From assembly GCA_015069385.1 (NCBI GenBank), contig SVIS01000001.1, forward strand, positions 17,127 to 81,126: a stretch of 64,000 bases of DNA, read 5' to 3'. The notes under the pieces were generated by a model, which did no database searches, had not been told where the DNA came from, and saw nothing but the letters and a program-made list of their open reading frames with translations. Below are positions 2,516-45,855 of the stretch, in pieces. Each line of letters starts with the position of its first letter. Position 1 is the first letter of the stretch. The position numbers and the translations under genes are program-made. Source of the stretch: Clostridiales bacterium (GTDB lineage Bacteria > Bacillota > Clostridia > Christensenellales > UBA1242).

Positions 2516-5314
2516 ATGGCAATATATAATTTTGAAGAACAGAAACCAAAGAAAAAAAAGACCGACTATCAAAAAATTGTAGGCTGTATTTTAGTTGCTG
2601 TTTCAATAATTTGTCTCTTTTGCTTAATAACTCGGTTTGTTCCTTTCATGAAAAGTTTTTTATTAGGAACTGCTGGGCTTTTTTGCTATCCTCTTTTTAT
2701 AACATTAATGGCAGTTGGCTTTGCCCTTGTTGGTCATAAAAAGTATGTAATGCCAAAAAAATATGGTGTTCTTCTTTGTTTGTCAGTAATATTTGTTTTA
2801 AGTATTTTACAATTAATTTTAGTTAAAAATGATGGTCTTAATTTTTGGCAATATATAACCACATGTTACACACAAAAAACAACTGCAGGTGGTATTATTT
2901 TAGGCATTGTTACGGCACCTGTTTTATATTTATTAAATCGATTGGGTGCATATATAATATTTATTGCACTTTCATTAATTTTTGTTGCTTTAACAATAGA
3001 TTATATACACTACTTAAGTAAAAATGAAAATTTAAAAAAAGCAATAAAAGTTTTAAATTCTCCAGAACAAGTTTCTAGTATTCCTGCAAAAATTACTGTT
3101 AAAGAGTTAGAAAACAATTTAAAATCTTCTGTTTTAAATAATACACAAACAGAAAATAAAGAGCAGGTAAAAATAACACTTAATGCTAAACAAGAACAAG
3201 AAACGACTGAAGAAGCTGCTAAACGTAAGTTAGGTTTACTTGCATCTTCTAAACAAGATCTAGAAGATAATAGCCGCTATTTCAATACAGAGATTGAAAA
3301 CGAAGTAAAAATCAAACCAGAAAATACTAGGGAATATTTGCTTTCTGGTAAAAATGATAAAATTGAACTTAGTAAATATAGTTCTAATCAGTTAAATAAA
3401 ATACAAGCAAATTTTATGAATCTAAAGAACAAGAGTTTTGATGATGAAACTATAACCCCAACCATCAATTTAAATGACATGCCAAGCAAAGTTATTCATG
3501 AAGATATTTCAACAATTATTCCGTCCACTTCAATAACTAATGTTAAAAGCACAATTGGAAATACTGATAATGTTGAATCAAATATTAAACCTAAAGTGAA
3601 TATTATAGAAGATAATTTAACTATTAATGAGCCAATAAAGATTCAACCAATTCCATCACAAATTATTGAAGAAAAACAACATGAAAACACTTTAGATGTA
3701 GAAAACTTTACTAATAATATTTTGGCATCATTAAATAAAGAAACAAAACAAGAAACTACAAATACTTCTAGTTATATTTCGTCAACAAATATGTTTAAAG
3801 AGGAACCATCACAAGTTTCCATGCCAATTGTTCCAAAAGAGCCAATTGTTTATGTTAAACCACCAATAGAACTTCTAACTACACAAAGTATGGATTTATC
3901 TCTTATGAATCAAGATGTTGTAATGAAGAGAGAAGAGTTAGAAATTGCCCTAGATACATTTGGCATTCCTGCAAAAGTAATTGGTGTAGTAATAGGTCCT
4001 GCTGTTACAAGATATGAACTTGAAATGCCAGCCGGTGTTAGTATTAAACGCTTACTTGCTCTTCAAGAAGATATTGCATATAATTTATCATCTAATGGTG
4101 ATATTCGTATAGAAGCGCCAATTCCTGGAAGAAGAGCCGTTGGTATAGAAGTTCCTAATGAAAAAATTGCAACAGTTGGCTTAAGAGATATAATTTTATC
4201 ACGTGAATTCATGGAGGCTAAGGCAAATTTGTCTATTGCTCTTGGTAAGGATATCTCGGGTGCGGTTAAAACTTTTAGTTTAATTAAAGTACCACATCTT
4301 TTAATTGCTGGTACAACAGGCTCTGGTAAATCTGTTTGTATAAATGCAATTATTTTAAGTTTAATTTATAGATATTCTCCAGATGAAGTTAAGTTTATTT
4401 TAGTTGACCCAAAACGTGTGGAATTTTCTATGTATAACAATCTTCCTCATTTATTAACACCAAATGTTATAACCGATAGCGAAAAAGCACTAAATGCACT
4501 TTCTTGGTGTGTTGATGAAATGGAAAGAAGATTTATTGTATTTGCAAACGCACGTGTAAAAAATTTAGAAGAATATAATCATAGCGAAGAGGTTTTAGAG
4601 GGTAGAGCAGAAAAAATGCCTTATATAATTTTCATCATTGATGAACTTGCAGACCTTTTAATGACTGCAAAAAAAGAGGCAGAAGAACATATTTGTAGAA
4701 TATTACAAAAAGCAAGGGCTGCCGGCATTCATATGATTCTTGCAACTCAAAGACCTTCAGTAGATATTGTAACTGGAAAAATTAAAGCAAACTTAAGTGC
4801 CAGAATTTGTTTTGCTTTAATGACTTTTGCCGATTCAAAAACTGTTTTAGATCAAGGTGGGGCAGATAAACTTCTTGGCAAAGGTGATATGTTGTTTATG
4901 TCTAGTGATACAGGTGTTCCTAAACGTATTCAAGGTTGTTTTGTAACAACAAAAGAAATTGATGACATTGTTACTTATGTAAAAGAAAATAATGGTGATT
5001 ACGAGTTTGATATGAAAACAGAACAATCTATTTTAAATCCACCTAAAAAAGATGTTGTAACACAAATAGATGGAGATAGAGCATCTAACGATGGCTTCGA
5101 TGCTTTAATGCCACAAGTATTAAAGTCTGTAATAGAAAGCGGACATGCATCTATATCTATGATACAAAGAAAATTTTTAGTTGGTTTTCCAAGGGCTGCT
5201 AGAATTATTGACCAAATGGAAGAAGCAGGTTATATTTCACCATCAGATGGCAGTAAATCTCGATCGGTTTATATGACTATGGAAGAATATGACAAATTAT
5301 ATGGAGAAGGATAA
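2516..5314 (+). CDS. ftsK: DNA translocase FtsK/SpoIIIE
   Basis: 932 aa. N-terminal TM helices and a long low-complexity linker are followed by the motor domain with Walker A GTTGSGKS and Walker B IIDELADL, then a gamma domain (SISMIQRKF..GFPRAARIIDQME). Confidence 0.92.
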   Translation: MAIYNFEEQKPKKKKTDYQKIVGCILVAVSIICLFCLITRFVPFMKSFLLGTAGLFCYPLFITLMAVGFALVGHKKYVMPKKYGVLLCLSVIFVLSILQLILVKNDGLNFWQYITTCYTQKTTAGGIILGIVTAPVLYLLNRLGAYIIFIALSLIFVALTIDYIHYLSKNENLKKAIKVLNSPEQVSSIPAKITVKELENNLKSSVLNNTQTENKEQVKITLNAKQEQETTEEAAKRKLGLLASSKQDLEDNSRYFNTEIENEVKIKPENTREYLLSGKNDKIELSKYSSNQLNKIQANFMNLKNKSFDDETITPTINLNDMPSKVIHEDISTIIPSTSITNVKSTIGNTDNVESNIKPKVNIIEDNLTINEPIKIQPIPSQIIEEKQHENTLDVENFTNNILASLNKETKQETTNTSSYISSTNMFKEEPSQVSMPIVPKEPIVYVKPPIELLTTQSMDLSLMNQDVVMKREELEIALDTFGIPAKVIGVVIGPAVTRYELEMPAGVSIKRLLALQEDIAYNLSSNGDIRIEAPIPGRRAVGIEVPNEKIATVGLRDIILSREFMEAKANLSIALGKDISGAVKTFSLIKVPHLLIAGTTGSGKSVCINAIILSLIYRYSPDEVKFILVDPKRVEFSMYNNLPHLLTPNVITDSEKALNALSWCVDEMERRFIVFANARVKNLEEYNHSEEVLEGRAEKMPYIIFIIDELADLLMTAKKEAEEHICRILQKARAAGIHMILATQRPSVDIVTGKIKANLSARICFALMTFADSKTVLDQGGADKLLGKGDMLFMSSDTGVPKRIQGCFVTTKEIDDIVTYVKENNGDYEFDMKTEQSILNPPKKDVVTQIDGDRASNDGFDALMPQVLKSVIESGHASISMIQRKFLVGFPRAARIIDQMEEAGYISPSDGSKSRSVYMTMEEYDKLYGEG

Positions 5315-8467: not shown

Positions 8468-9478
8468 ATGGACGATAAGAAAAAAATTTTAGAACAAGCA
8501 ATTTTAAACATTGAAAAACAGTTTGGTAAAGGCGCTATTATGAAATTAGGTGATGCACCTGATCAAAAAATTGAAGTTATACCAACTGGATGTTTACCAT
8601 TAGATTTAGCACTTGGTTGTGGCGGTATGCCAAGAGGTAGAATAATTGAAATATATGGACCAGAATCATCTGGTAAAACAACACTCGCACTACATGTAGT
8701 TGCAGAGGCGCAAAAAATGGGTGGAACTGCTGCCTTTATTGATGCAGAACATGCACTTGACCCAGTTTATGCTGGCAAACTAGGTGTTGATATTGGTGAA
8801 CTTTATGTTTCTCAGCCAGATAATGGTGAACAAGCACTTGATATTTGTGATTCATTAGTTAGAACAGGTGCTGTAGATGTTGTTGTAGTAGACTCTGTTG
8901 CTGCTTTAACTCCTAAGGCAGAAATTGATGGCGATATGGGTGACCAACATATGGGTCTTCAGGCAAGACTTATGAGTCAAGCCATGCGAAAAATTGCTGG
9001 TATAGCAAATAAAAGTAAAACTTGTATTATATTTATAAATCAACTTCGTGAAAAAATTGGTGTTATGTTTGGTAATCCTGAAACCACTGCTGGAGGTAAA
9101 GCACTTAAATTTTATGCTAGTATACGTATTGATATTAGAAGAGTTGATTCTATAAAAGATGGTGCAAATATTATTGGTAACAAAACAAAAGCAAAAATTG
9201 TAAAAAATAAACTTGCACCTCCATTTAAAACTGTTGAATTTGATATCATGTATGGTGAGGGTATTTCAAAAGTAGGCTCAACTCTTGACATGGCTATAGA
9301 GTTAAACATTGTTCAAAAAACTGGCTCTTGGTTCTCATATAATGATGAAAAAATTGCTCAAGGTAAGGAAAACTGCAAACAATACTTAAAAGACCATCCA
9401 GAAGTTTACGAAGAAATTGAAAGTAAAGTTCGCGAACAAATTACTGGTGGTAATTTAAATGCATTAATTGAAGAATAA
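8468..9478 (+). CDS. recA: Recombinase RecA
   Basis: [29 protein letters not shown], Walker [10 protein letters not shown] and the rest of the protein are canonical RecA. An AGGAG RBS lies 7 nt upstream of ATG 8468; the ORF-track start at 8417 is an upstream extension. Confidence 0.97.
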
Positions 9479-37097: not shown

Positions 37098-37173
37098 CGG
37101 GGTGTAGCGCAGTTGGTAGCGCACGTGGTTTGGGACCATGGGGCCGGGAGTTCGAGTCTCTTCACCCCGACCA
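37098..37173 (+). tRNA. tRNA-Pro (anticodon TGG), encoded CCA
   Basis: Cloverleaf read by hand. The acceptor is CGGGGTG/CACCCCG, the anticodon loop is TTTGGGA, and the T-loop is TTCGAGT. Confidence 0.9.
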
Positions 37174-37181
37174 TAATTTTT

Positions 37182-37258
37182 GGGTCTTTAGCTCAGTTGG
37201 TTAGAGCTACCGGCTCATAACCGGTTGGTCCGGGGTTCGAGTCCCTGAAGACCCACCA
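37182..37258 (+). tRNA. tRNA with CAT anticodon, probably tRNA-Ile2 (lysidine-modified) rather than elongator Met
   Basis: The acceptor is GGGTCTT/AAGACCC. The anticodon arm CCGGCTCATAACCGG followed by TTGGTC resembles the Ile2(CAU) type. CCA is encoded. Confidence 0.8.
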
Positions 37259-37302
37259 AAAATTACTTTGGTGAAGTTATGGTACTAGAAATAAAATTTT
37301 GT

Positions 37303-37379
37303 GGTTCGGTAGTTCAGCTGGTTAGAACGCTAGCCTGTCACGCTAGAGGTCGTGGGTTCGATCCCCATCCGAATCGCCA
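37303..37379 (+). tRNA. tRNA-Asp (anticodon GTC)
   Basis: Sequence GGTTCGGTAGTTCAGCTGGTTAGAAC...CCTGTCACG...GGTTCGATCCC...CCGAATCGCCA. Confidence 0.92.
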
Positions 37380-37383
37380 ATTT

Positions 37384-37459
37384 GCCTCGGTAGCTCAGTC
37401 GGTAGAGCAAGGGACTGAAAATCCCTGTGTCGGTGGTTCGATTCCGCCCCGCGGCACCA
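37384..37459 (+). tRNA. tRNA-Phe (anticodon GAA)
   Basis: Sequence GCCTCGGTAGCTCAGTCGGTAGAGC...GACTGAAAATC...GGTTCGATTCC...CCGCGGCACCA. The acceptor stem has one U4-C69 mismatch. Confidence 0.88.
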
Positions 37460-37598
37460 CGCTTAAGCGGTTAAATACTGCTTTAGGCATATTGTTAGCC
37501 AGTTTGTTGGCATTAAAAATAACACACCCTCCCCTTTTAATATATTTTTTGTGGTTTAGATTTTTGGTGTTATTTTTATCTAGTAAATACCACTTTAT

Positions 37599-37674
37599 GC
37601 TGGTGTAGCTCAATTGGCAGAGCAACTGACTTGTAATCAGTAGGTTGTTGGTTCGATTCCGATCACCAGCTCCA
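37599..37674 (+). tRNA. tRNA-Thr (anticodon TGT)
   Basis: Sequence GCTGGTGTAGCTCAATTGGCAGAGC...GACTTGTAATC...GGTTCGATTCC...CACCAGCTCCA. Confidence 0.92.
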
Positions 37675-37679
37675 ACCTT

Positions 37680-37765
37680 GGGTAGGTTGCAGAGCGGCCA
37701 AATGCTACGGACTGTAAATCCGTCGACTTACGTCTTCGGTGGTTCGAATCCACCCCTGCCCACCA
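37680..37765 (+). tRNA. tRNA-Tyr (anticodon GTA), class II with a long variable arm
   Basis: Sequence GGGTAGGTTGCAGAGCGG...GACTGTAAATC, then the long variable arm CGACTTACGTCTTCG, then GGTTCGAATCC...CCTGCCCACCA. Confidence 0.9.
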
Positions 37766-38001: not shown

Positions 38002-39357
38002 TTAAAATTTAATTGTATAAACTATACATCTTCCATTTTCACAATCTTTTGTTTCAATATCAATTATTGGAAGATTATGTTCTAATTCTTCTAAAGTAAC
38101 AGTTTTATTATCAGAAATTTCTTCCAAGTTTGATTCTATTTGTTTATCTACAAACTGGTCTTCTGAATCATTGTCATTGTGAATAGGCTTACTATTTTTC
38201 TCTATATTTGATTCATCATTTTTTTCTAGCAAAGGTTTTGGTCTTGGATATGGTCTAGGCAATGGCTCTGGTCGATCATTCCAAGTATTTATTATCTCAT
38301 CATTTTGCTGTTCATCATTGATATTGATTTGTTCTTTATCCAAATCTTTACGTGAACGATAAGTATCAACATTCTTGTATGTTCCAAAAGAATTTATATT
38401 AGGGTAGATATAGCCTTGCCTAAATGGCATCATACCGTAACCATACATATTTCCAGCATATCCCATAGGTCCATAACCTCCCATACCGTAACCATTATAT
38501 CCATAATTATTCATACCGTATTGATTAGCATAGTCCATACCATAGCCTGGGTTATAATTACGTAAATAATTATCCTTGTTATACACCGGATTATTTCTTA
38601 TATCACCATATATATTTGTTCCGGCATTTTCATAAGTATCTATATTTTTCATAATCCCTGTTTTTTGTATATCATTATCAATAGTCTTATATTCTTTACA
38701 TAAAACATTTTCTATATTTTGCAAACTACTCATAATACTTGAATAATAAGTTAACCTTGTATTTAAACCTGTTTGCAATTTTAAATATTTAAAATTCAAT
38801 TGTTCTGGTTTTGAACTATATTCATCTTTTAAACTTTGAACACTCTTGTAATAATTAGAAATTTCATTACGTGTTAAACTAATTCGAGTATTATTTGCCA
38901 TAATAGAACTATTTAATTCATTTAAAGTATTTATTTGTTCATCAGACAAGTTAGTATTATCATCAATATTTTGTTTGCATAATTCTTTTATTTGAGTACT
39001 TTTTGCATATATTTGTTTTTTTGTATTATTAAGTGAATCATTCAAGTTTATTGTAGCTAAAATATTGTTGTTTAACATAGTTAATTTAGTTATATAAGCA
39101 TTCATTGAAGTATTTTCTAACAGGTTTATAGTCTCAATATCTATATCAGTTAAATCATTTGCGTCCATAAAATCGCTTAGAAATAACGTTGAATTATCAA
39201 TATTTTGTACCTTGTCTAATGTATTAGTAATTTTCGACATGTTATTTGATATCATGCTAAGAGTAGTATTAGAATTATTTTCTGTACACCCCATTATAAA
39301 AATAGCACAAAAGATAAAACTTGAAATAATTAATACTTTTATTATTTTATTTTTCAT
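38002..39357 (-). CDS. Putative lipoprotein with an Asn-rich helical region and a Tyr/Gly/Met-rich low-complexity segment
   Basis: 451 aa. A signal peptide is followed by a lipobox (FIMGC). The segment GYGMDYANQYGMNNYGYNGYGMGGYGPMGYAGNMYGYGMMPF is encoded at about 38425-38555 by repeated CATACCGTAACCA units. A Pro-rich PEPLPRPYPRPKP stretch is also present. No family was recognised. Confidence 0.6.
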   Translation of the reverse strand: MKNKIIKVLIISSFIFCAIFIMGCTENNSNTTLSMISNNMSKITNTLDKVQNIDNSTLFLSDFMDANDLTDIDIETINLLENTSMNAYITKLTMLNNNILATINLNDSLNNTKKQIYAKSTQIKELCKQNIDDNTNLSDEQINTLNELNSSIMANNTRISLTRNEISNYYKSVQSLKDEYSSKPEQLNFKYLKLQTGLNTRLTYYSSIMSSLQNIENVLCKEYKTIDNDIQKTGIMKNIDTYENAGTNIYGDIRNNPVYNKDNYLRNYNPGYGMDYANQYGMNNYGYNGYGMGGYGPMGYAGNMYGYGMMPFRQGYIYPNINSFGTYKNVDTYRSRKDLDKEQININDEQQNDEIINTWNDRPEPLPRPYPRPKPLLEKNDESNIEKNSKPIHNDNDSEDQFVDKQIESNLEEISDNKTVTLEELEHNLPIIDIETKDCENGRCIVYTIKF

Positions 39358-41389: not shown

Positions 41390-42064
41390 ATGAAAAATAA
41401 AACAAATAAAAGTTTTATTAAAAGATTAAAACGCAAGATATTAATATGTCTTGCGGTTTTATCTTGTTTAATAGTTACTATTATATGTTATTTAAACTAT
41501 GTAGTTAATCCTGTTATTATTTCTACAAGTGCTGCTAAAGTTCGTTCGCTAAGCCAAAGAGCAGTTGAAAATGTTGTTAGGCAAGTAATACACGAAAATG
41601 TGATGTATGATACATTAGTGCTTATAATGAGAGATGAAAGCGGAAAGATAGTAACAATAAGTTCGAACTCAGCAACAATTAATATGCTTGCGTTAGAAGT
41701 TACCGAAAAAGCCCAAAACGCATTATCTCAAATGGGTGCAAATGGAATTGATATTCCTATTGGCTCTTTTAGTGGCATGCCAATTTTTACGGGTAGAGGT
41801 CCAGCTGTAAATATCAAAATGCTACCAATTGGAACGATATTTTGCAAATTTGAATCAACCTTTACAGAAGCAGGAATTAACCAAACAAATCATAGAATTT
41901 ATTTAAAAGTATACTCATCAGTTAGTGTAATTTTACCAACAGCAAATCAAACTATACAAACGGAAACTCAGTTAATGATTTGTGAAAGCATTATTGTAGG
42001 TGAAATACCTGATACATATTTACATTCAGATAGTCTTGATGAAATGATGAACTTAATTCCATAA
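41390..42064 (+). CDS. yunB: Sporulation protein YunB
   Basis: 224 aa with an N-terminal TM helix. The segment IPIGSFSGMPIFTGRGPAVNIKMLPIG...GINQTNHRIYLKV...VGEIP aligns with the B. subtilis YunB pattern. Confidence 0.75.
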   Translation: MKNKTNKSFIKRLKRKILICLAVLSCLIVTIICYLNYVVNPVIISTSAAKVRSLSQRAVENVVRQVIHENVMYDTLVLIMRDESGKIVTISSNSATINMLALEVTEKAQNALSQMGANGIDIPIGSFSGMPIFTGRGPAVNIKMLPIGTIFCKFESTFTEAGINQTNHRIYLKVYSSVSVILPTANQTIQTETQLMICESIIVGEIPDTYLHSDSLDEMMNLIP

Positions 42065-42077
42065 TTCCATGTAAAAA

Positions 42078-42110
42078 TAAAACTGCCAAAATTTATTGGC
42101 AGTTTTTTTA
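42078..42110 (+). terminator. Intrinsic terminator after yunB
   Basis: Hairpin CTGCCAA / TTGGCAG followed by TTTTTTT. Confidence 0.8.
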
Positions 42111-42146: not shown

Positions 42147-42180
42147 ATTTATTCGCAAAATACAGGTTTTGCGAATAAAT
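42147..42180. other. dif-like recombination site candidate, left copy: perfect 14-bp inverted arms around a 6-bp asymmetric core
   Basis: ATTTATTCGCAAAA-TACAGG-TTTTGCGAATAAAT. The first 17 bp are repeated exactly at 43201-43217. Confidence 0.5.
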
Positions 42181-42200
42181 ATTGTAATATAAACAAAAAA

Positions 42201-43139
42201 TTATTGTATTTTTAATATATTAACAAACTTTATTGCCATTTCATATTTAATTGTATTAAGGGGTTCTTTAAATAAAGAAATGTTTGTATTACAAATACTT
42301 TTTTTATTTTGCATAGTACTATTTTTTAAATAATTTATTATGTTTATAGTTGTAATTGTTTCATCTTGAGCAAAAAGTTCATTTGGACAATCAAATAATA
42401 AAGACTCAATAAAAATTTGATTTGGTTTTTGCTGAAAAAGATTCCAATATAAATTATTAAAAATTTTAATTTGTTGCTTAAAATAGCCTTGAGTTTTTAT
42501 ATCTTTAATTTCTATATTATCAAAACGTTCATAAAAATCAATTATTATCTTTTTAGAAGTGCTTGTATTATATAAACAAAAAGAATTCGTATCTGTTATA
42601 AATACAGGATAAATATTAATATCTACTCCAAACTCTTCTTTGCCAACAATACTAATTTTTTTTGTATCAATATATAATTTAGATTCTTTATATAATAACT
42701 TTGTTAATTCTGAGAATAAATCATAAAGCAAAACCTCTATATCATAATCTTGTAAATTTAAAACTTTTTTATTAGTTTGCTTTATAACCTGCTCACCTTT
42801 TTTCTTTCTCGATGAAAATAGTTTAAAATTAGCTTTAAAATAGTTCCAATATTGTATTAAATTATTTTTAAATTTACTATGTCTTTTGTTTACAAAATTT
42901 AACTCAATTTGCGGAGCATCAACTAGCAAAAATAAATCTAATGAAGAATTAAAATATTCTACTCCAGTAAATACTTCATTTGCAACGTATAGTTCATAGT
43001 TTATAATATAAGGATTTCTCTGTTTGATTGTATTTATAACTTCATCAATATACTGAGAAATAACATTATATGCATGATTAAATGCATTTAAATTAGTATC
43101 TTTTGAAAATTCTTTAATTAAACTTTTCATCATATTCAT
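42201..43139 (-). CDS. Hypothetical protein with weak minimal-nucleotidyltransferase (Pol-beta / SMODS-like) features
   Basis: 312 aa. FTGVEYFNSSLDLFLLVD sits at the G-S...D-x-D position but is degenerate. GVDINIYPVF fits a third-carboxylate strand. IFIESLLFDCPNELF resembles the helix that follows the NTase core in SMODS-type proteins. The assignment rests on motif resemblance only. Confidence 0.45.
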   Translation of the reverse strand: MNMMKSLIKEFSKDTNLNAFNHAYNVISQYIDEVINTIKQRNPYIINYELYVANEVFTGVEYFNSSLDLFLLVDAPQIELNFVNKRHSKFKNNLIQYWNYFKANFKLFSSRKKKGEQVIKQTNKKVLNLQDYDIEVLLYDLFSELTKLLYKESKLYIDTKKISIVGKEEFGVDINIYPVFITDTNSFCLYNTSTSKKIIIDFYERFDNIEIKDIKTQGYFKQQIKIFNNLYWNLFQQKPNQIFIESLLFDCPNELFAQDETITTINIINYLKNSTMQNKKSICNTNISLFKEPLNTIKYEMAIKFVNILKIQ

Positions 43140-43197
43140 ACTTATATTCTACAATTAGTCAAATAATTTTGTAAAGCAAATTTATTATCAAAAATAA

Positions 43198-43226
43198 TTG
43201 ATTTATTCGCAAAATACTAATATAAT
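43198..43226 (+). promoter_or_regulatory. Promoter of the recombinase gene, with the dif-like arm in its spacer
   Basis: TTGATT (43198-43203), 17 nt, TATAAT (43221-43226). The ATG at 43233 lies 7 nt after the -10 and has no SD, which implies a leaderless mRNA. Confidence 0.55.
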
Positions 43227-43234
43227 ATTGATAT
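43201..43234. other. dif-like site candidate, right copy: conserved left arm with a degenerate right arm
   Basis: ATTTATTCGCAAAA-TACTAA-TATAATATTGATAT, immediately upstream of and overlapping the recombinase start. Confidence 0.45.
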
Positions 43235-44261
43235 GAGTAATTATTTTTTTGAACGAAATAAAAAAAGCAATGAAAAACTACGACAAATTGTAAATACATT
43301 ACCCGATTTTACTATTGATTATTTTATTGGAATAGAACAAAATACTTCACCACTTACACGACTTAACTATGCAACCGATTTAGCCATTTTTTTCTATTTT
43401 CTAAGCGGAGAAATCTTGCATAAACCAATAAAATCTATTAATTTATATGACTTGAATAATATAAGATCTCGTGATATCGAATTATTTTTAAGTTTTGTTA
43501 CCAATTTTAGCAAAGATGGTATTGAATATCAAAATGGCGAGCGAGGCAAGGCAAGAAAATTATCTGCTATTAAATCACTTTTTAAATATTTGTATAAAAA
43601 CGACTATATTTCACAAGATGAAACAAGTAAAGTTAAATCACCTAAAATTCATTCTAAGCCCATTATACATTTAGATGCTAATGAAGTTTCAAAACTATTA
43701 AATGAATCTGAAAACCCAACCGAACTTAACAATCGTGAGATGGCTTTTAATAAAATTACATGTATAAGAGATACTGCTCTTTTAAGTTTGTTTCTTGGTA
43801 CAGGAATTCGTGTTAGTGAATGCGTTGGATTAAATGTTAAAGATATTGATTTCGAAAATAATGCATTTAAAATAACTAGAAAAGGTGGCAACCAAACAAT
43901 TTTATATTTTAGCGAAGAAGTAAGTGCACCACTAAAAGCATGGCTAGAAGAACGCAGTTTTTGGCTTAAAGACAAAGAACAAGAAACAGCCTTGTTTATA
44001 TCGCTTCAAAAAAAACGAATTAGTGTAAGGGCTGTTGAAAAATTAGTTAAAAAATATAGTTTAACTGCCTCTCCTTTAAAAAAAATCACCCCACATAAAC
44101 TAAGAAGTACATATGGTACTTCTTTATATCAAGAAACTGGTGATATTTACATAGTGGCTGAAGTTCTTGGTCATAAAGATGTTAACACTACAAAAAAACA
44201 CTATGCTTCAATTAGCGAAGATATAAAACGTTCTGTAGTTAATAAAGTAAAATTAAGATAA
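43233..44261 (+). CDS. Tyrosine site-specific recombinase, XerS-like single-recombinase Xer type
   Basis: 342 aa. Contains the N-terminal SAM-like domain (TRLNYATDLAIFFYFL, LSAIKSLFKYLY), then GIRVSECVGL, TRKGGNQ, and HKLRSTYGTSLY...LGHKDVNTTKKHY with the catalytic Tyr. Confidence 0.8.
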   Translation: MSNYFFERNKKSNEKLRQIVNTLPDFTIDYFIGIEQNTSPLTRLNYATDLAIFFYFLSGEILHKPIKSINLYDLNNIRSRDIELFLSFVTNFSKDGIEYQNGERGKARKLSAIKSLFKYLYKNDYISQDETSKVKSPKIHSKPIIHLDANEVSKLLNESENPTELNNREMAFNKITCIRDTALLSLFLGTGIRVSECVGLNVKDIDFENNAFKITRKGGNQTILYFSEEVSAPLKAWLEERSFWLKDKEQETALFISLQKKRISVRAVEKLVKKYSLTASPLKKITPHKLRSTYGTSLYQETGDIYIVAEVLGHKDVNTTKKHYASISEDIKRSVVNKVKLR

Positions 44262-44289
44262 AAAAAGCATACAATGTATGCTTTTTTTA
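44261..44289. terminator. Bidirectional intrinsic terminator
   Basis: Hairpin AGCATAC / GTATGCT flanked by A6 and T7, between convergent genes. Confidence 0.8.
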
Positions 44290-44856
44290 ATTTTCACCTA
44301 ATTCATTTTTTATGCTTTCTATACGCTCTACTACTTTTTTCATTTCAAGTTTTCTGTTTAACTCATCTAATTGCTTTTTTAACATAAGTTCATCATCATA
44401 ATTAGGTACTTCAGCAATGGGATCAATTGTTATTGTTGTGCTTTTATATAACTTTGTTAATTTAAAACTAACTACAAACATTATAAGTGATAACACATGA
44501 CTAACAAGCAAAATACCAATTGTTAAGTAATAACCAATATCAAGTATGAATTTAGTATAGTAAACAACAAATATTCCTGCAATTATTGCTGAAAATGTAA
44601 TGAACAATAACAAAAATAAATACTTAGCCAATCCAAATAAATTTTTAATCTTTTTTGTTTTTGAAAGTATAGTAAACAAGTAACTTAAAAGTAATAATTC
44701 TTCTGTCAACAAAGCTATATTCAGCCATAAAATACCAGTTTGTTGAATTAAATTATTTATACTATAGTAACAAACCCAAGCAATTGCGGCTAAAATAAAC
44801 AATGTTAATGCCTTATATACCGCAGATAAAATTTGTTTTTTTTGCTTATTATCCAT
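44287..44856 (-). CDS. Hypothetical multi-pass membrane protein with a C-terminal coiled coil
   Basis: About 189 aa with 5 hydrophobic helices and the tail DELMLKKQLDELNRKLEMKKVVERIESIKNELGEN. No family was recognised. Confidence 0.5.
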   Translation of the reverse strand: MDNKQKKQILSAVYKALTLFILAAIAWVCYYSINNLIQQTGILWLNIALLTEELLLLSYLFTILSKTKKIKNLFGLAKYLFLLLFITFSAIIAGIFVVYYTKFILDIGYYLTIGILLVSHVLSLIMFVVSFKLTKLYKSTTITIDPIAEVPNYDDELMLKKQLDELNRKLEMKKVVERIESIKNELGEN

Positions 44857-44986
44857 AACCCACCCCACTAATTAATTTTATTATACAATATATATATTGC
44901 TTTGTCAAATCTTGTAGATTTAAATATGTACACACTCATTTTAAATTTGTTTGCTCTTTTTATAAAACATGTTATACTTAGTTCAT

Positions 44987-45779: not shown

Positions 45780-45855
45780 TGGAGCTACTGGGCGGGCTTG
45801 AACCGCCGACCTATTGATTACGAATCAATTGCTCTACCAACTGAGCTACAATAGC
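45780..45855 (-). tRNA. tRNA-Thr (anticodon CGT)
   Basis: Minus strand: GCTATTGTAGCTCAGTTGGTAGAGC...GATTCGTAATC...GGTTCAAGCCC...CAGTAGCTCCA. Confidence 0.9.

What the first reader, a model, noticed from the sequence alone, without database searches (positions are those of the whole stretch)
42147..43234. Two directly oriented dif-like sites flank a 1-kb single-gene insert next to a XerS-like recombinase (minimal IMEX-like element?)
Seen in sequence:
- 42147-42180 reads ATTTATTCGCAAAA-TACAGG-TTTTGCGAATAAAT. This is a pair of perfect 14-bp inverted arms around a 6-bp asymmetric core, the architecture of a tyrosine-recombinase core site.
- Its first 17 bp, the left arm plus TAC of the core, recur exactly at 43201-43217. 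There they are followed by TAA and a degenerate right arm.
- The second copy sits in the spacer of the promoter of the adjacent recombinase gene, whose ATG is at 43233.
- The two copies are in direct orientation and enclose only the orphan ORF at 42201-43139.

Established knowledge:
- Single-recombinase Xer systems (XerS/difSL, XerH/difH) place dif immediately next to the recombinase gene.
- Elements that integrate by Xer recombination end up flanked by two dif-like sites whose identity breaks inside the central region.

Inference: a ~1.05-kb circular element carrying the palindromic site integrated into the chromosomal dif. An element of this kind, with no recombinase gene of its own, would be among the smallest Xer-exploiting cassettes. 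Alternatively, the shared 17-mer is an operator for a regulator that controls both divergent promoters.
Basis: partly seen in the sequence, partly recalled or inferred. Interest (0 to 1): 0.8.

Follow-up and report, generated by a model that had tools for sequence, protein, structure and literature searches.

The report
Terminus dif site plus xer-promoter half-site
The two repeats are not the ends of a tiny mobile cassette: one is most likely the chromosome's own dimer-resolution (dif) site at the replication terminus, and the other is a conserved single-arm copy built into the promoter of the neighbouring Xer recombinase gene, probably so that the enzyme can control its own production.

Summary
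The sequence observation is correct. 42147-42180 is a perfect 14+6+14 palindrome, and its first 17 bp recur at 43201-43217 inside the TTGATT-17-TATAAT promoter of a XerS-like tyrosine recombinase gene.

The IMEX reading is not supported:
- The palindrome is conserved upstream of the orthologous recombinase gene in 52 of 84 related Clostridia loci (consensus AACTATTCGTAAAA-GCTGTG-TTTTACGAATAGTT).
- It lies within 300 bp of the window's cumulative GC-skew maximum.
- It has difH/difSL-like architecture.
- In two relatives it is the integration point of microvirus prophages. In the one whose far junction lies within the held DNA, both junctions carry two-armed sites.

The second copy is only a half-site. 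A half-site embedded in the xer promoter is present in about 30 relatives, including nine where the full site is only 160-281 bp away with no gene between them. It covaries with the arms of the full site. The extra shared TAC occurs only in this window (1 of 30 loci).

The enclosed 312-aa gene has a CD-NTase fold and lacks the canonical DxD motif. It is syntenic in every close relative and in every contig of the same species, so it is a resident gene, not cargo.

Best reading: a Clostridial single-recombinase-type dif/Xer module with a detached, probably autoregulatory, operator. I found no description of it in the literature library I searched.

The parts
42147..42180 (.). Full dif-like core site: ATTTATTCGCAAAA (42147-42160), TACAGG (42161-42166), TTTTGCGAATAAAT (42167-42180). 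I read it as the chromosomal dimer-resolution site of the adjacent recombinase.
   Evidence: sequence and repeat; conserved in 52/84 related loci; cumulative GC-skew maximum at 42440; terminus-like skew polarity around the site in 28/39 relatives and the opposite polarity in 0/39; the site occurs in viral contigs and flanks a microvirus prophage.
43201..43214 (+). Single-arm (half-site) copy of the dif arm inside the xer promoter spacer. I infer that it is an autoregulatory operator. The exact identity with the full site runs on to 43217 (TAC), which I take to be coincidence.
   Evidence: 30 loci have a separate promoter half-site, and the 3-nt extension is shared in only 1/30; the half-site matches the arms of its own locus better than the arms of other loci (12.9 vs 11.9 of 14; 0 of 20000 permutations reach the observed value).
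43198..43226 (+). Sigma-70-type promoter of xer: -35 TTGATT (43198-43203), 17-nt spacer, -10 TATAAT (43221-43226). The ATG follows 6 nt later, so the mRNA is probably leaderless.
   Evidence: 10/12 match to consensus; 41/84 related loci have a -10-like hexamer 5-8 nt, mostly 6 nt, before the ATG.
43233..44261 (+). Xer-family tyrosine recombinase, 342 aa, XerS-like in length and profile.
   Evidence: Pfam Phage_integrase 2.8e-35 plus the SAM-like N-terminal domain. XerS NF003462 at 201 bits, below the 267-bit cutoff; XerC 173, XerA 166, XerD 159 bits. R193, K217, H288, R291, H314 and Y324 are invariant in 16 homologs. XerD 8e-24 and XerH 4e-13 among solved structures.
42201..43139 (-). Resident 312-aa gene with a CD-NTase fold and D68-L-F70 where CD-NTases have DxD. 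It is transcribed divergently from xer, and its 3' end faces the dif site. It is not cargo.
   Evidence: weak matches to an anti-phage nucleotidyltransferase and to an oligonucleotide cyclase. PF26305 CD_NTase_C in homologs. AlphaFold2 model, pLDDT 84.5; best match CdnE 6e0k, E 3.8e-10, TM about 0.6; synteny.
41390..42064 (+). yunB, the last gene of the plus-strand (left replichore) block spoVAC-spoVAD-spoVAE-yunB.
   Evidence: Spore_YunB 5e-30; same order in relatives.
42079..42106 (+). Intrinsic terminator hairpin of yunB, separate from the dif palindrome.
   Evidence: (I5).
43180..43193 (+). Degenerate 12/14 copy (ATTTATTATCAAAA) lacking the invariant CG. Probably chance.
   Evidence: not conserved in L081, L082 or L084.

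Best explanation
The 34-bp palindrome at 42147-42180 is the dif site of a XerS/XerH-type chromosome-dimer-resolution module. Two monomers of the adjacent 342-aa Xer recombinase would bind the two identical 14-bp arms and exchange strands across the 6-bp central region when two copies meet at the replication terminus. This mechanism is inferred from XerH/difH and XerS/difSL.

The copy at 43201-43214 is a single arm placed between the -35 and -10 elements of the recombinase gene's own promoter, which probably makes a leaderless mRNA. A recombinase monomer bound there would occlude RNA polymerase, giving negative autoregulation. This is also an inference. In many relatives dif itself sits in the xer promoter or leader. 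In lineages where dif has been separated from xer, a half-site has been kept in the promoter.

The 312-aa CD-NTase-fold gene between the two sites is an ordinary, vertically inherited, lineage-specific gene. It is neither flanked by recombination-competent sites nor mobile.
For: Site is conserved and linked to xer. A full site, consensus AACTATTCGTAAAA-GCTGTG-TTTTACGAATAGTT with CG and A4/T4 invariant, lies 62-4147 bp upstream of the orthologous gene in 52/84 loci.

Terminus position.
- The window's cumulative GC-skew maximum is at 42440.
- Genes switch from mostly plus strand to mostly minus strand at 42-44 kb.
- In relatives the 5 kb to the left of the site has positive skew and the 5 kb to the right negative skew in 28/39 loci, and never the reverse.

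Architecture matches known sites.
- difH is TTTAGTTATGAAAA-CTGCAC-TTTTCAAACT, where the G and the A4 run are essential (PMC3325230).
- difSL arms are TTTCCGAAAA and TTTTCTTGAAA.
- Both of those sites lie next to their recombinase gene (PMC5357621).

The site behaves as a recombination target.
- It occurs in 21 IMG/VR viral contigs.
- In L105 a ~4.9-kb microvirus prophage (Rep and capsid genes) lies between two-armed copies that share TTTTGCGAATAGATTAT.
- In L002 a microvirus abuts a hybrid site, ATATTCACAAAA-GACAGC-TTTTGCGAATAA.

The half-site is a conserved promoter feature.
- 30 loci have a separate half-site at -28 to -88.
- Nine of them (L023, L032, L036, L043, L044, L047, L056, L058, L074) have the full site only 127-281 bp from the xer start, or 74-207 bp from the half-site, with no gene between.
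- In the 12 loci with the full site within 135 bp of the start, only two (L029, L036) also have a separate one.
- In the window and in L081, L082 and L084 the half-site always fills the spacer between -35 and -10.
- It tracks lineage-specific arm variants: AATTATT in L081, ATTTGTT in L084, ATCTATGCG in L003.

Literature. Le Bourgeois et al. 2007 already proposed that XerS autoregulates by binding difSL at its promoter (PMC1914069).

The enclosed gene is resident.
- Homologs occupy the same position and orientation in L001, L002, L003, L005, L007, L077, L078, L081-L084 and L106-L108.
- All 49 database homologs are 30-55% identical.
Against: - No binding or recombination experiment exists. That the recombinase, and not some other protein, binds the half-site is an inference.
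- I could not test whether the genome also encodes XerC/XerD and a classical dif elsewhere. There is no Bacillus-type dif in the window, but the window is only 64 kb.
- The recombinase scores below NCBIfam's XerS cutoff, and among solved structures it is closer to XerD than to XerH by plain sequence.
- About a third of the related loci show no full site within the DNA held. The search pattern was derived from the family itself.
- The palindrome also satisfies a loose terminator scan for the minus-strand gene, so a dual role is possible.
- L077 and L078 have the 312-aa homolog but no site within 6 kb.
Confidence: 0.68

Rival explanations
1. One reading: a ~1.05-kb circular cassette carrying only the 312-aa gene integrated into dif by Xer recombination. 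The two copies are its junctions, and it could excise again.
For: Two copies of the arm bracket a single gene next to the recombinase gene, and the identity extends 3 nt into the central region. The gene resembles defence-type nucleotidyltransferases, which are often mobile. IMEXs do use this family's dif.
Against: - The right-hand copy has no second arm (5/14 match).
- The same full-site plus half-site layout exists with no gene between the sites in at least 9 relatives.
- The TAC extension is shared in 1/30 loci, and the close relatives differ immediately after the arm.
- The gene is present and syntenic in every relative with 54-81% identical xer that I examined, and in 7 contigs of the same species. 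No empty site was found.
- In L003, L005, L007, L077 and L078 its homolog follows the housekeeping gene serS.
- The gene's divergence (40-55% identity) parallels that of the host gene (70-81%).
Confidence: 0.03
2. Fossil IMEX: an ancestor acquired the CD-NTase-like gene by Xer-mediated integration. One junction then decayed to a half-site that was co-opted as an operator.
For: Distances between dif and xer vary from 62 bp to 4.1 kb among lineages, so DNA has repeatedly entered this interval. IMEX integration at this dif is real.
Against: - Promoter half-sites exist in lineages without any insert, so they do not need an integration event to arise.
- In the 'far' lineages the central region is mostly inverted relative to xer: 13 of 17 loci, against 8 of 35 'near' loci. 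A local inversion that carried dif away from xer fits this better than an insertion does.
- In several far loci the intervening genes include housekeeping serS.
Confidence: 0.07
3. The motif is the operator of a separate DNA-binding regulator, not the recombinase. The palindrome would be a full operator and the promoter copy a half operator.
For: Perfect palindromes are typical of dimeric regulators. The half-site overlaps a promoter. LexA is encoded just downstream of xer in L001 (Pfam-confirmed), and ORFs of similar size and position in L002 and L077 were not scanned.
Against: - The palindrome is not at a promoter in the window. It lies between two convergent 3' ends.
- It sits at the skew switch in the window and in relatives.
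- It has A4-N6-T4 dif architecture.
- It flanks an integrated microvirus and occurs in phage contigs.
- Its arms change together with the linked recombinase lineage.
- It does not resemble a LexA box (from general knowledge).
Confidence: 0.1
4. The palindrome is only a Rho-independent terminator for the 312-aa gene, and the promoter match is chance.
For: It is scored as terminator-like on the minus strand: a 17-pair stem, with a T-run after a few bases.
Against: - It is conserved at the sequence level across more than 50 genomes in varied contexts, including directly upstream of xer with no gene ending there.
- The central region is conserved.
- An exact 14-mer third copy is expected about 0.005 times per window.
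- The T-run is offset from the stem.
Confidence: 0.02

Closest known systems
XerS/difSL of streptococci and lactococci (Le Bourgeois 2007, PMC1914069; Nolivos 2010, PMC2965235)
   Same: - Firmicutes.
- A long Xer recombinase (356 vs 342 aa). XerS is the best-scoring NCBIfam profile, aligned end to end.
- dif is genetically linked to the recombinase gene and lies at the terminus.
- Arms are of the T-rich, CG, AAAA type (TTTCCGAAAA).
- Autoregulation through the site at the promoter was already proposed for XerS.
   Different: - The score is below the XerS equivalog cutoff (201 vs 267 bits).
- Arms are perfect 14-bp inverted repeats around 6 bp, whereas difSL has unequal arms around an 11-bp centre.
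- In this lineage dif lies 1.05 kb from xer, and a separate half-site stays in the promoter.
XerH/difH of Helicobacter and Campylobacter (Debowski 2012, PMC3325230; Bebel 2016, PMC5241119)
   Same: - The site pattern is the same, ...G-AAAA-N6-TTTT-C..., with a 6-bp centre.
- The H. pylori centre CTGCAC resembles this family's GCTGCA/GCTGTG.
- dif lies near the xer gene.
   Different: - Different phylum.
- Protein similarity is only E 4e-13, weaker than to XerD.
- difH arms are imperfect.
XerL/dif of Legionellales (PMC9765430)
   Same: A single-recombinase system found through an integrated mobile element. Its dif arms are long, uninterrupted inverted repeats.
   Different: xerL lies more than 400 kb from its dif. 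The recombinase family is unrelated and the bacteria are proteobacteria.
IMEXs, in particular Microviridae prophages at dif (Krupovic & Forterre 2011, PMC3091885; Kirchberger & Ochman 2020, PMC7062461)
   Same: In relatives L105 and L002 a microvirus genome sits at this family's dif. In L105 two-armed sites are present on both sides.
   Different: The window's 1-kb interval has one two-armed site and one single arm. It has no replication or structural genes, and it is conserved rather than variable.
Recombinases that repress their own promoter through their recombination site, e.g. Tn3/gamma-delta resolvase at res and TnpI of Tn5401 (from general knowledge)
   Same: Recombinase-binding sequences overlap the promoter of the recombinase gene.
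   Different: Here the operator is a detached single arm, separate from the functional recombination site. Binding has not been shown.

Membership tests
IMEX (integrative mobile element exploiting Xer) | Flanked on both sides by dif-like sites, each able to bind two recombinase monomers (two arms around a central region) | tested here: not met
   The left site is two-armed. The right site has one arm only (5/14 match on the other side). Positive control: L105 has two-armed sites at both prophage ends.
IMEX (integrative mobile element exploiting Xer) | Identity between the flanking sites breaks inside the central region (crossover signature) | tested here: not met
   The TAC extension is shared only in the window (1/30 loci). 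In L081, L082 and L084 the identity ends at or one base after the arm.
IMEX (integrative mobile element exploiting Xer) | Variable presence: empty sites in related genomes or strains, or evidence of a free or replicating form | tested here: not met
   The gene is present in all close relatives and in all contigs of the same species that reach the region. Its 49 homologs lie on the same contigs as xer. It has no replication gene.
IMEX (integrative mobile element exploiting Xer) | Located at the chromosomal dif | tested here: met
   The interval abuts the dif-like site at the skew maximum. This is also true of any resident neighbour of dif.
Single-recombinase Xer/dif module (XerS/difSL, XerH/difH type) | Xer-family tyrosine recombinase with the R-K-H-R-H-Y catalytic set | tested here: met
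   R193, K217, H288, R291, H314 and Y324 are invariant in alignment A1.
Single-recombinase Xer/dif module (XerS/difSL, XerH/difH type) | dif: two inverted arms around a 6-11 bp centre, conserved across the lineage | tested here: met
Single-recombinase Xer/dif module (XerS/difSL, XerH/difH type) | dif at the replication terminus (GC-skew switch) | tested here: met
   Skew maximum at 42440, strand switch, 28/39 relatives terminus-like and 0 origin-like. Whole-chromosome skew was not available.
Single-recombinase Xer/dif module (XerS/difSL, XerH/difH type) | dif genetically linked to the recombinase gene | tested here: met
   62-4147 bp upstream in 52/84 loci.
Single-recombinase Xer/dif module (XerS/difSL, XerH/difH type) | Only one Xer recombinase acts (no XerC/XerD partner); the site is unique in the genome | not testable with these tools
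There is no Bacillus-type dif in the window.
Single-recombinase Xer/dif module (XerS/difSL, XerH/difH type) | Recombination at the site by this enzyme, dependent on FtsK | not testable with these tools
   Needs experiments. Indirect support: microvirus prophages integrated at the site.
XerS proper (NCBIfam NF003462 equivalog) | Score at or above the curated cutoff (267 bits) | tested here: not met
   201 bits. It is best described as XerS-like and not as XerS.
CD-NTase / CBASS cyclase (for the 312-aa gene) | cGAS/DncV-like nucleotidyltransferase fold | tested here: met
   AlphaFold2 model with pLDDT 84.5. Best Foldseek match CdnE 6e0k, E 3.8e-10, TM about 0.6. PF26305 in homologs.
CD-NTase / CBASS cyclase (for the 312-aa gene) | Catalytic GS...[DE]x[DE]...[DE] acidic triad | tested here: inconclusive
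   On the strand where DxD is expected the family has D68-L-F70, with F nearly invariant. The positions were assigned by motif and secondary structure, not by superposition.
CD-NTase / CBASS cyclase (for the 312-aa gene) | Operon with an effector (Cap) gene | tested here: not met
   The gene is monocistronic in the window, or follows serS in relatives.

The most novel reading that the evidence does not exclude
A large group of gut and rumen Clostridia (Christensenellales-like, Caccovivens and others) resolves chromosome dimers with a previously undescribed single-recombinase Xer system. Its features would be: a perfectly palindromic 14-6-14 dif; a leaderless xer gene autoregulated through dif, or through a detached dif half-site kept in its promoter after dif and xer were separated; and exploitation by microviruses and possibly tailed phages for integration. 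The detached half-site would be natural evidence for the Xer autoregulation proposed for XerS in 2007 and, as far as I could find, not followed up since.
Probability: 0.45. Interest if true: 0.6.

Novelty: new variant of a known kind. Interest (0 to 1): 0.42.

Why it matters
The proposed 'smallest Xer-exploiting cassette' is not there, so that claim should be dropped.

What is there is still useful:
- It gives a testable dif/Xer pair for a large, mostly uncultured branch of Clostridia, for which I found no single-recombinase (XerS/XerH-type) dif described in the library searched.
- It gives a sequence marker for the replication terminus in their MAGs.
- It identifies the attachment site used by gut microviruses in these hosts.
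- It offers a clean natural experiment, a detached half-site retained in the promoter, that supports recombinase autoregulation.

Tried and rejected
- Classical Firmicutes dif (Bacillus type) in the window: none within 3 mismatches.
- Other copies of the 14-mer as evidence of a regulon: only the three exact copies. The copies with 1-2 mismatches lack the CG or fall at chance level.
- Pfam on the 312-aa protein and on two of its homologs: no hit in my scans. Only weak NCBIfam and PADLOC hits, so I used structure prediction instead.
I repeated it with database proteins only.
- Search for the left junction of the L002 microvirus: not within the DNA held.
- Search for a full site in L077, L078, L004, L011, L012 and L018 with a generic palindrome finder: none within the DNA held.
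- Empty-site search among contigs of the same species: none.
- Literature search for a Clostridial XerS/XerH-like system: nothing found in the library. The library lacks most subscription journals.
- Terminator-only reading of the palindrome: rejected on conservation.
- The degenerate copy at 43180-43193 as a second operator: rejected, because it is not conserved and lacks the CG.
Full report
**Observation.**
- 42147-42180 reads ATTTATTCGCAAAA-TACAGG-TTTTGCGAATAAAT, with perfect 14-bp inverted arms.
- The first 17 bp recur exactly at 43201-43217 (D4).
- The second copy fills the 17-nt spacer between TTGATT (43198-43203) and TATAAT (43221-43226), the best promoter-like match in front of the ATG at 43233.
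- What follows the second copy matches the right arm at only 5 of 14 positions, so it is a half-site.
- Exact copies of the 14-mer occur nowhere else in the 64 kb. From base composition I estimate about 0.005 chance matches per window.
- A 12/14 copy at 43180-43193 lacks the CG core and is not conserved in relatives.

**Genes.**
- 43233-44261 (+) encodes a 342-aa tyrosine recombinase (Pfam Phage_integrase 2.8e-35). Its best NCBIfam model is XerS at 201 bits, aligned end to end but below the 267-bit cutoff. XerC, XerA and XerD follow at 173, 166 and 159 bits. Among solved structures XerD is the closest by sequence (8e-24) and XerH scores 4e-13. The catalytic R, K, H, R, H and Y are invariant in 16 homologs.
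- 41390-42064 (+) is yunB, preceded by spoVA genes. It has its own terminator at 42079-42106.
- 42201-43139 (-) encodes a 312-aa protein with no Pfam hit and weak hits to an anti-phage nucleotidyltransferase and to an oligonucleotide cyclase.

**Terminus.** Cumulative G-C skew peaks at 42440, within 300 bp of the palindrome (coarser profile). Long ORFs are mostly on the plus strand before 42 kb and almost all on the minus strand after 44 kb. No Bacillus-type dif is present in the window.

**Relatives.**
- The recombinase has thousands of homologs in uncultured Clostridia.
- A scan of one genome per species returned 80 loci with 49-64% identity. Look-ups of closer homologs gave L081-L084 (76-81%) and L106-L109 (same protein).
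- Printing the 120 bp upstream of each gene showed the same motif again and again.
- A systematic scan found a full two-armed site upstream of xer in 52 of 84 loci, 62 to 4147 bp from the start codon. The consensus is AACTATTCGTAAAA-GCTGTG-TTTTACGAATAGTT. The CG and the A4/T4 runs were fixed by the search pattern itself, so their apparent invariance says nothing; most flanking positions, which the pattern left free, are also strongly conserved.
- Around those sites, the left 5 kb has positive and the right 5 kb negative GC skew in 28 of 39 testable loci, and never the reverse. A terminus gives this polarity whichever way a locus is oriented.
- The architecture matches difH (TTTAGTTATGAAAA-CTGCAC-TTTTCAAACT, where the G and the A4 run are essential; PMC3325230) and resembles difSL (arms TTTCCGAAAA and TTTTCTTGAAA; PMC5357621). 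Both of those sites lie beside their recombinase genes.

**The site is used by mobile elements, and that is what a real IMEX looks like here.**
- The pattern ATTCGYAAAA-N6-TTTTRCGAAT occurs in 21 IMG/VR contigs.
- L105 is a host fragment laid out as: xer; a divergent 296-aa gene distantly related to the 312-aa protein; a full site at 3565-3600; a microvirus Rep gene and capsid gene; then two-armed sites again at 8476-8556. The 17-mer TTTTGCGAATAGATTAT is repeated at both ends.
- L002 is laid out as: xer; the 312-aa homolog; a hybrid site ATATTCACAAAA-GACAGC-TTTTGCGAATAA; then a microvirus (Rep, Phage_F capsid).
- Microvirus prophages at dif are known (PMC3091885, PMC7062461).
- Other viral hits are tailed-phage fragments with terminase and portal genes.

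**The half-site is a conserved promoter feature, not a scar.**
- Thirty loci have a separate half-site 28-88 bp before the start codon.
- Nine of these (L023, L032, L036, L043, L044, L047, L056, L058, L074) have the full site only 127-281 bp from the xer start, or 74-207 bp from the half-site, which is too close to hold a gene.
- Of the 12 loci with the full site within 135 bp of the start, only two (L029, L036) also have a separate half-site.
- In the window and in L081, L082 and L084 the half-site always lies between TTGAnT and TATAAT. The bases after the arm differ between the full site and the half-site in the relatives: GAC vs TTA, TCC vs TGT, GGC vs TCA.
- Only the window shares all three following bases (1 of 30). 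The 'identity breaking inside the central region' is therefore coincidence.
- The half-site follows lineage-specific arm variants. Its mean identity to the arms of its own locus is 12.9 of 14, against 11.9 after permutation, and 0 of 20000 permutations reach the observed value. Shared ancestry inflates this test.
- In 41 of 84 loci a -10-like hexamer ends 5-8 nt, mostly 6 nt, before the ATG. This fixes the promoter position and suggests a leaderless mRNA.
[quoted passage not shown] The detached half-site fits that idea.

**The enclosed gene is resident.**
- Homologs of the 312-aa protein lie in the same position and orientation in L001, L002, L003, L005, L007, L077 and L078.
- In five of these they follow serS.
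- They are also in place in L081-L084 and in every contig of the same species that reaches the region.
- The database holds only 49 homologs, 30-55% identical, on contigs whose lengths match those of the xer homologs.
- An AlphaFold2 model (pLDDT 84.5) matches CD-NTases, with CdnE 6e0k as the best hit (E 3.8e-10, TM about 0.6).
- Where CD-NTases carry Asp-x-Asp, the family has D68-L-F70. This assignment is by motif position, and the alignment numbering is one lower because Met1 was omitted.
- No effector gene is adjacent.
- I cannot say what the protein does. A non-catalytic or divergent nucleotidyltransferase is the best description.

**Mechanism.**
- Shown: conservation of the site, its linkage to xer, its terminus position, its use as an integration point by microviruses, and the promoter placement and covariation of the half-site.
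- Inferred: two recombinase monomers bind the palindrome and resolve chromosome dimers, as XerH and XerS do.
- Inferred: a monomer bound to the promoter half-site represses xer.
- Not testable here: whether this is the only Xer in the genome, whether the site is unique, and whether recombination depends on FtsK.

**An unexplained regularity.**
- Sites within about 800 bp of xer mostly have the central region as GCTGTG (27 of 35).
- Sites 1 kb or more away, including the window's (TACAGG, the reverse complement of CCTGTA), mostly have the reverse complement (13 of 17).
- A local inversion that carried dif, plus a neighbouring gene, away from the xer promoter would explain both the distance and the flip. 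This is conjecture.

**Novelty.** Reviews and recent papers list XerS, XerH, XerL and archaeal XerA as the single-recombinase systems. I found nothing on Clostridia in the library, though the library is incomplete. I rate this a new variant of a known kind and of moderate interest. The headline claim of a minimal IMEX is not supported.

Noticed in passing
L105:3565-8556 and L002:1095-4940: Microviridae prophages (Phage_F capsid, Rep ORF2/G2P) are integrated at this family's dif site next to xer. In L105 two-armed dif-like sites flank about 4.9 kb of phage DNA and share a 17-nt direct repeat. These are genuine IMEXs of a XerS/XerH-like system in Clostridia.
   Followed up: partly
L085-L104 (IMG/VR contigs): The full palindromic site also occurs in viral contigs that are not microviruses. 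L093, L104 and L097 carry terminase and portal genes, L099 a D5-like primase-helicase, and L089 and L098 a Rep gene on roughly 6.8-kb contigs. Tailed phages or plasmid-like elements may also use this Xer system for integration or dimer resolution.
   Followed up: partly
window 43221-43235, and 41 of 84 related loci: The -10 hexamer of the xer promoter ends 6 nt before the ATG and there is no Shine-Dalgarno sequence. This implies a leaderless xer mRNA, and the arrangement is conserved across much of the family.
   Followed up: partly
window 42161-42166, and the full sites of L001-L084: The orientation of the 6-bp central region relative to xer correlates with distance. It is GCTGTG-like when dif is within about 800 bp of xer and reverse-complemented when dif is 1 kb or more away. 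This suggests that a local inversion, not an insertion, separated dif from xer.
   Followed up: partly
window 42201-43139 (-): The protein has a CD-NTase fold but no canonical Asp-x-Asp (it has D68-L-F70) and no adjacent effector gene. It is restricted to this lineage and is always near xer. In more distant relatives it follows serS (L003, L005, L007, L077, L078). Its function is unknown.
   Followed up: partly
L001:7097-7708; similar ORFs in L002:7095-7697 and L077:7101-7715: A LexA-type repressor gene lies immediately downstream of xer in L001 (Pfam-confirmed); ORFs of the same size and position in L002 and L077 were not scanned. In the window that position is taken by a 193-aa membrane protein gene on the opposite strand (44287-44868).
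   Followed up: no
window 37098-37765 and 45780-45855: A cluster of six tRNA genes (Pro, Met, Asp, Phe, Thr, Tyr) lies 4.4 kb to the left of the dif site. A single tRNA-Thr(CGT) on the minus strand lies 3.6 kb to its right.
   Followed up: no
window 38002-39357 (-): This ORF encodes a 451-aa protein with a signal-peptide or lipoprotein-like N-terminus, a long Asn-rich region and a Gly/Tyr/Asn/Met-rich repeat segment. It was not analysed.
   Followed up: no
window 44259-44289: A 14-pair hairpin flanked by A- and T-runs lies between the convergent xer gene and the 193-aa gene. It is a likely bidirectional terminator.
   Followed up: no
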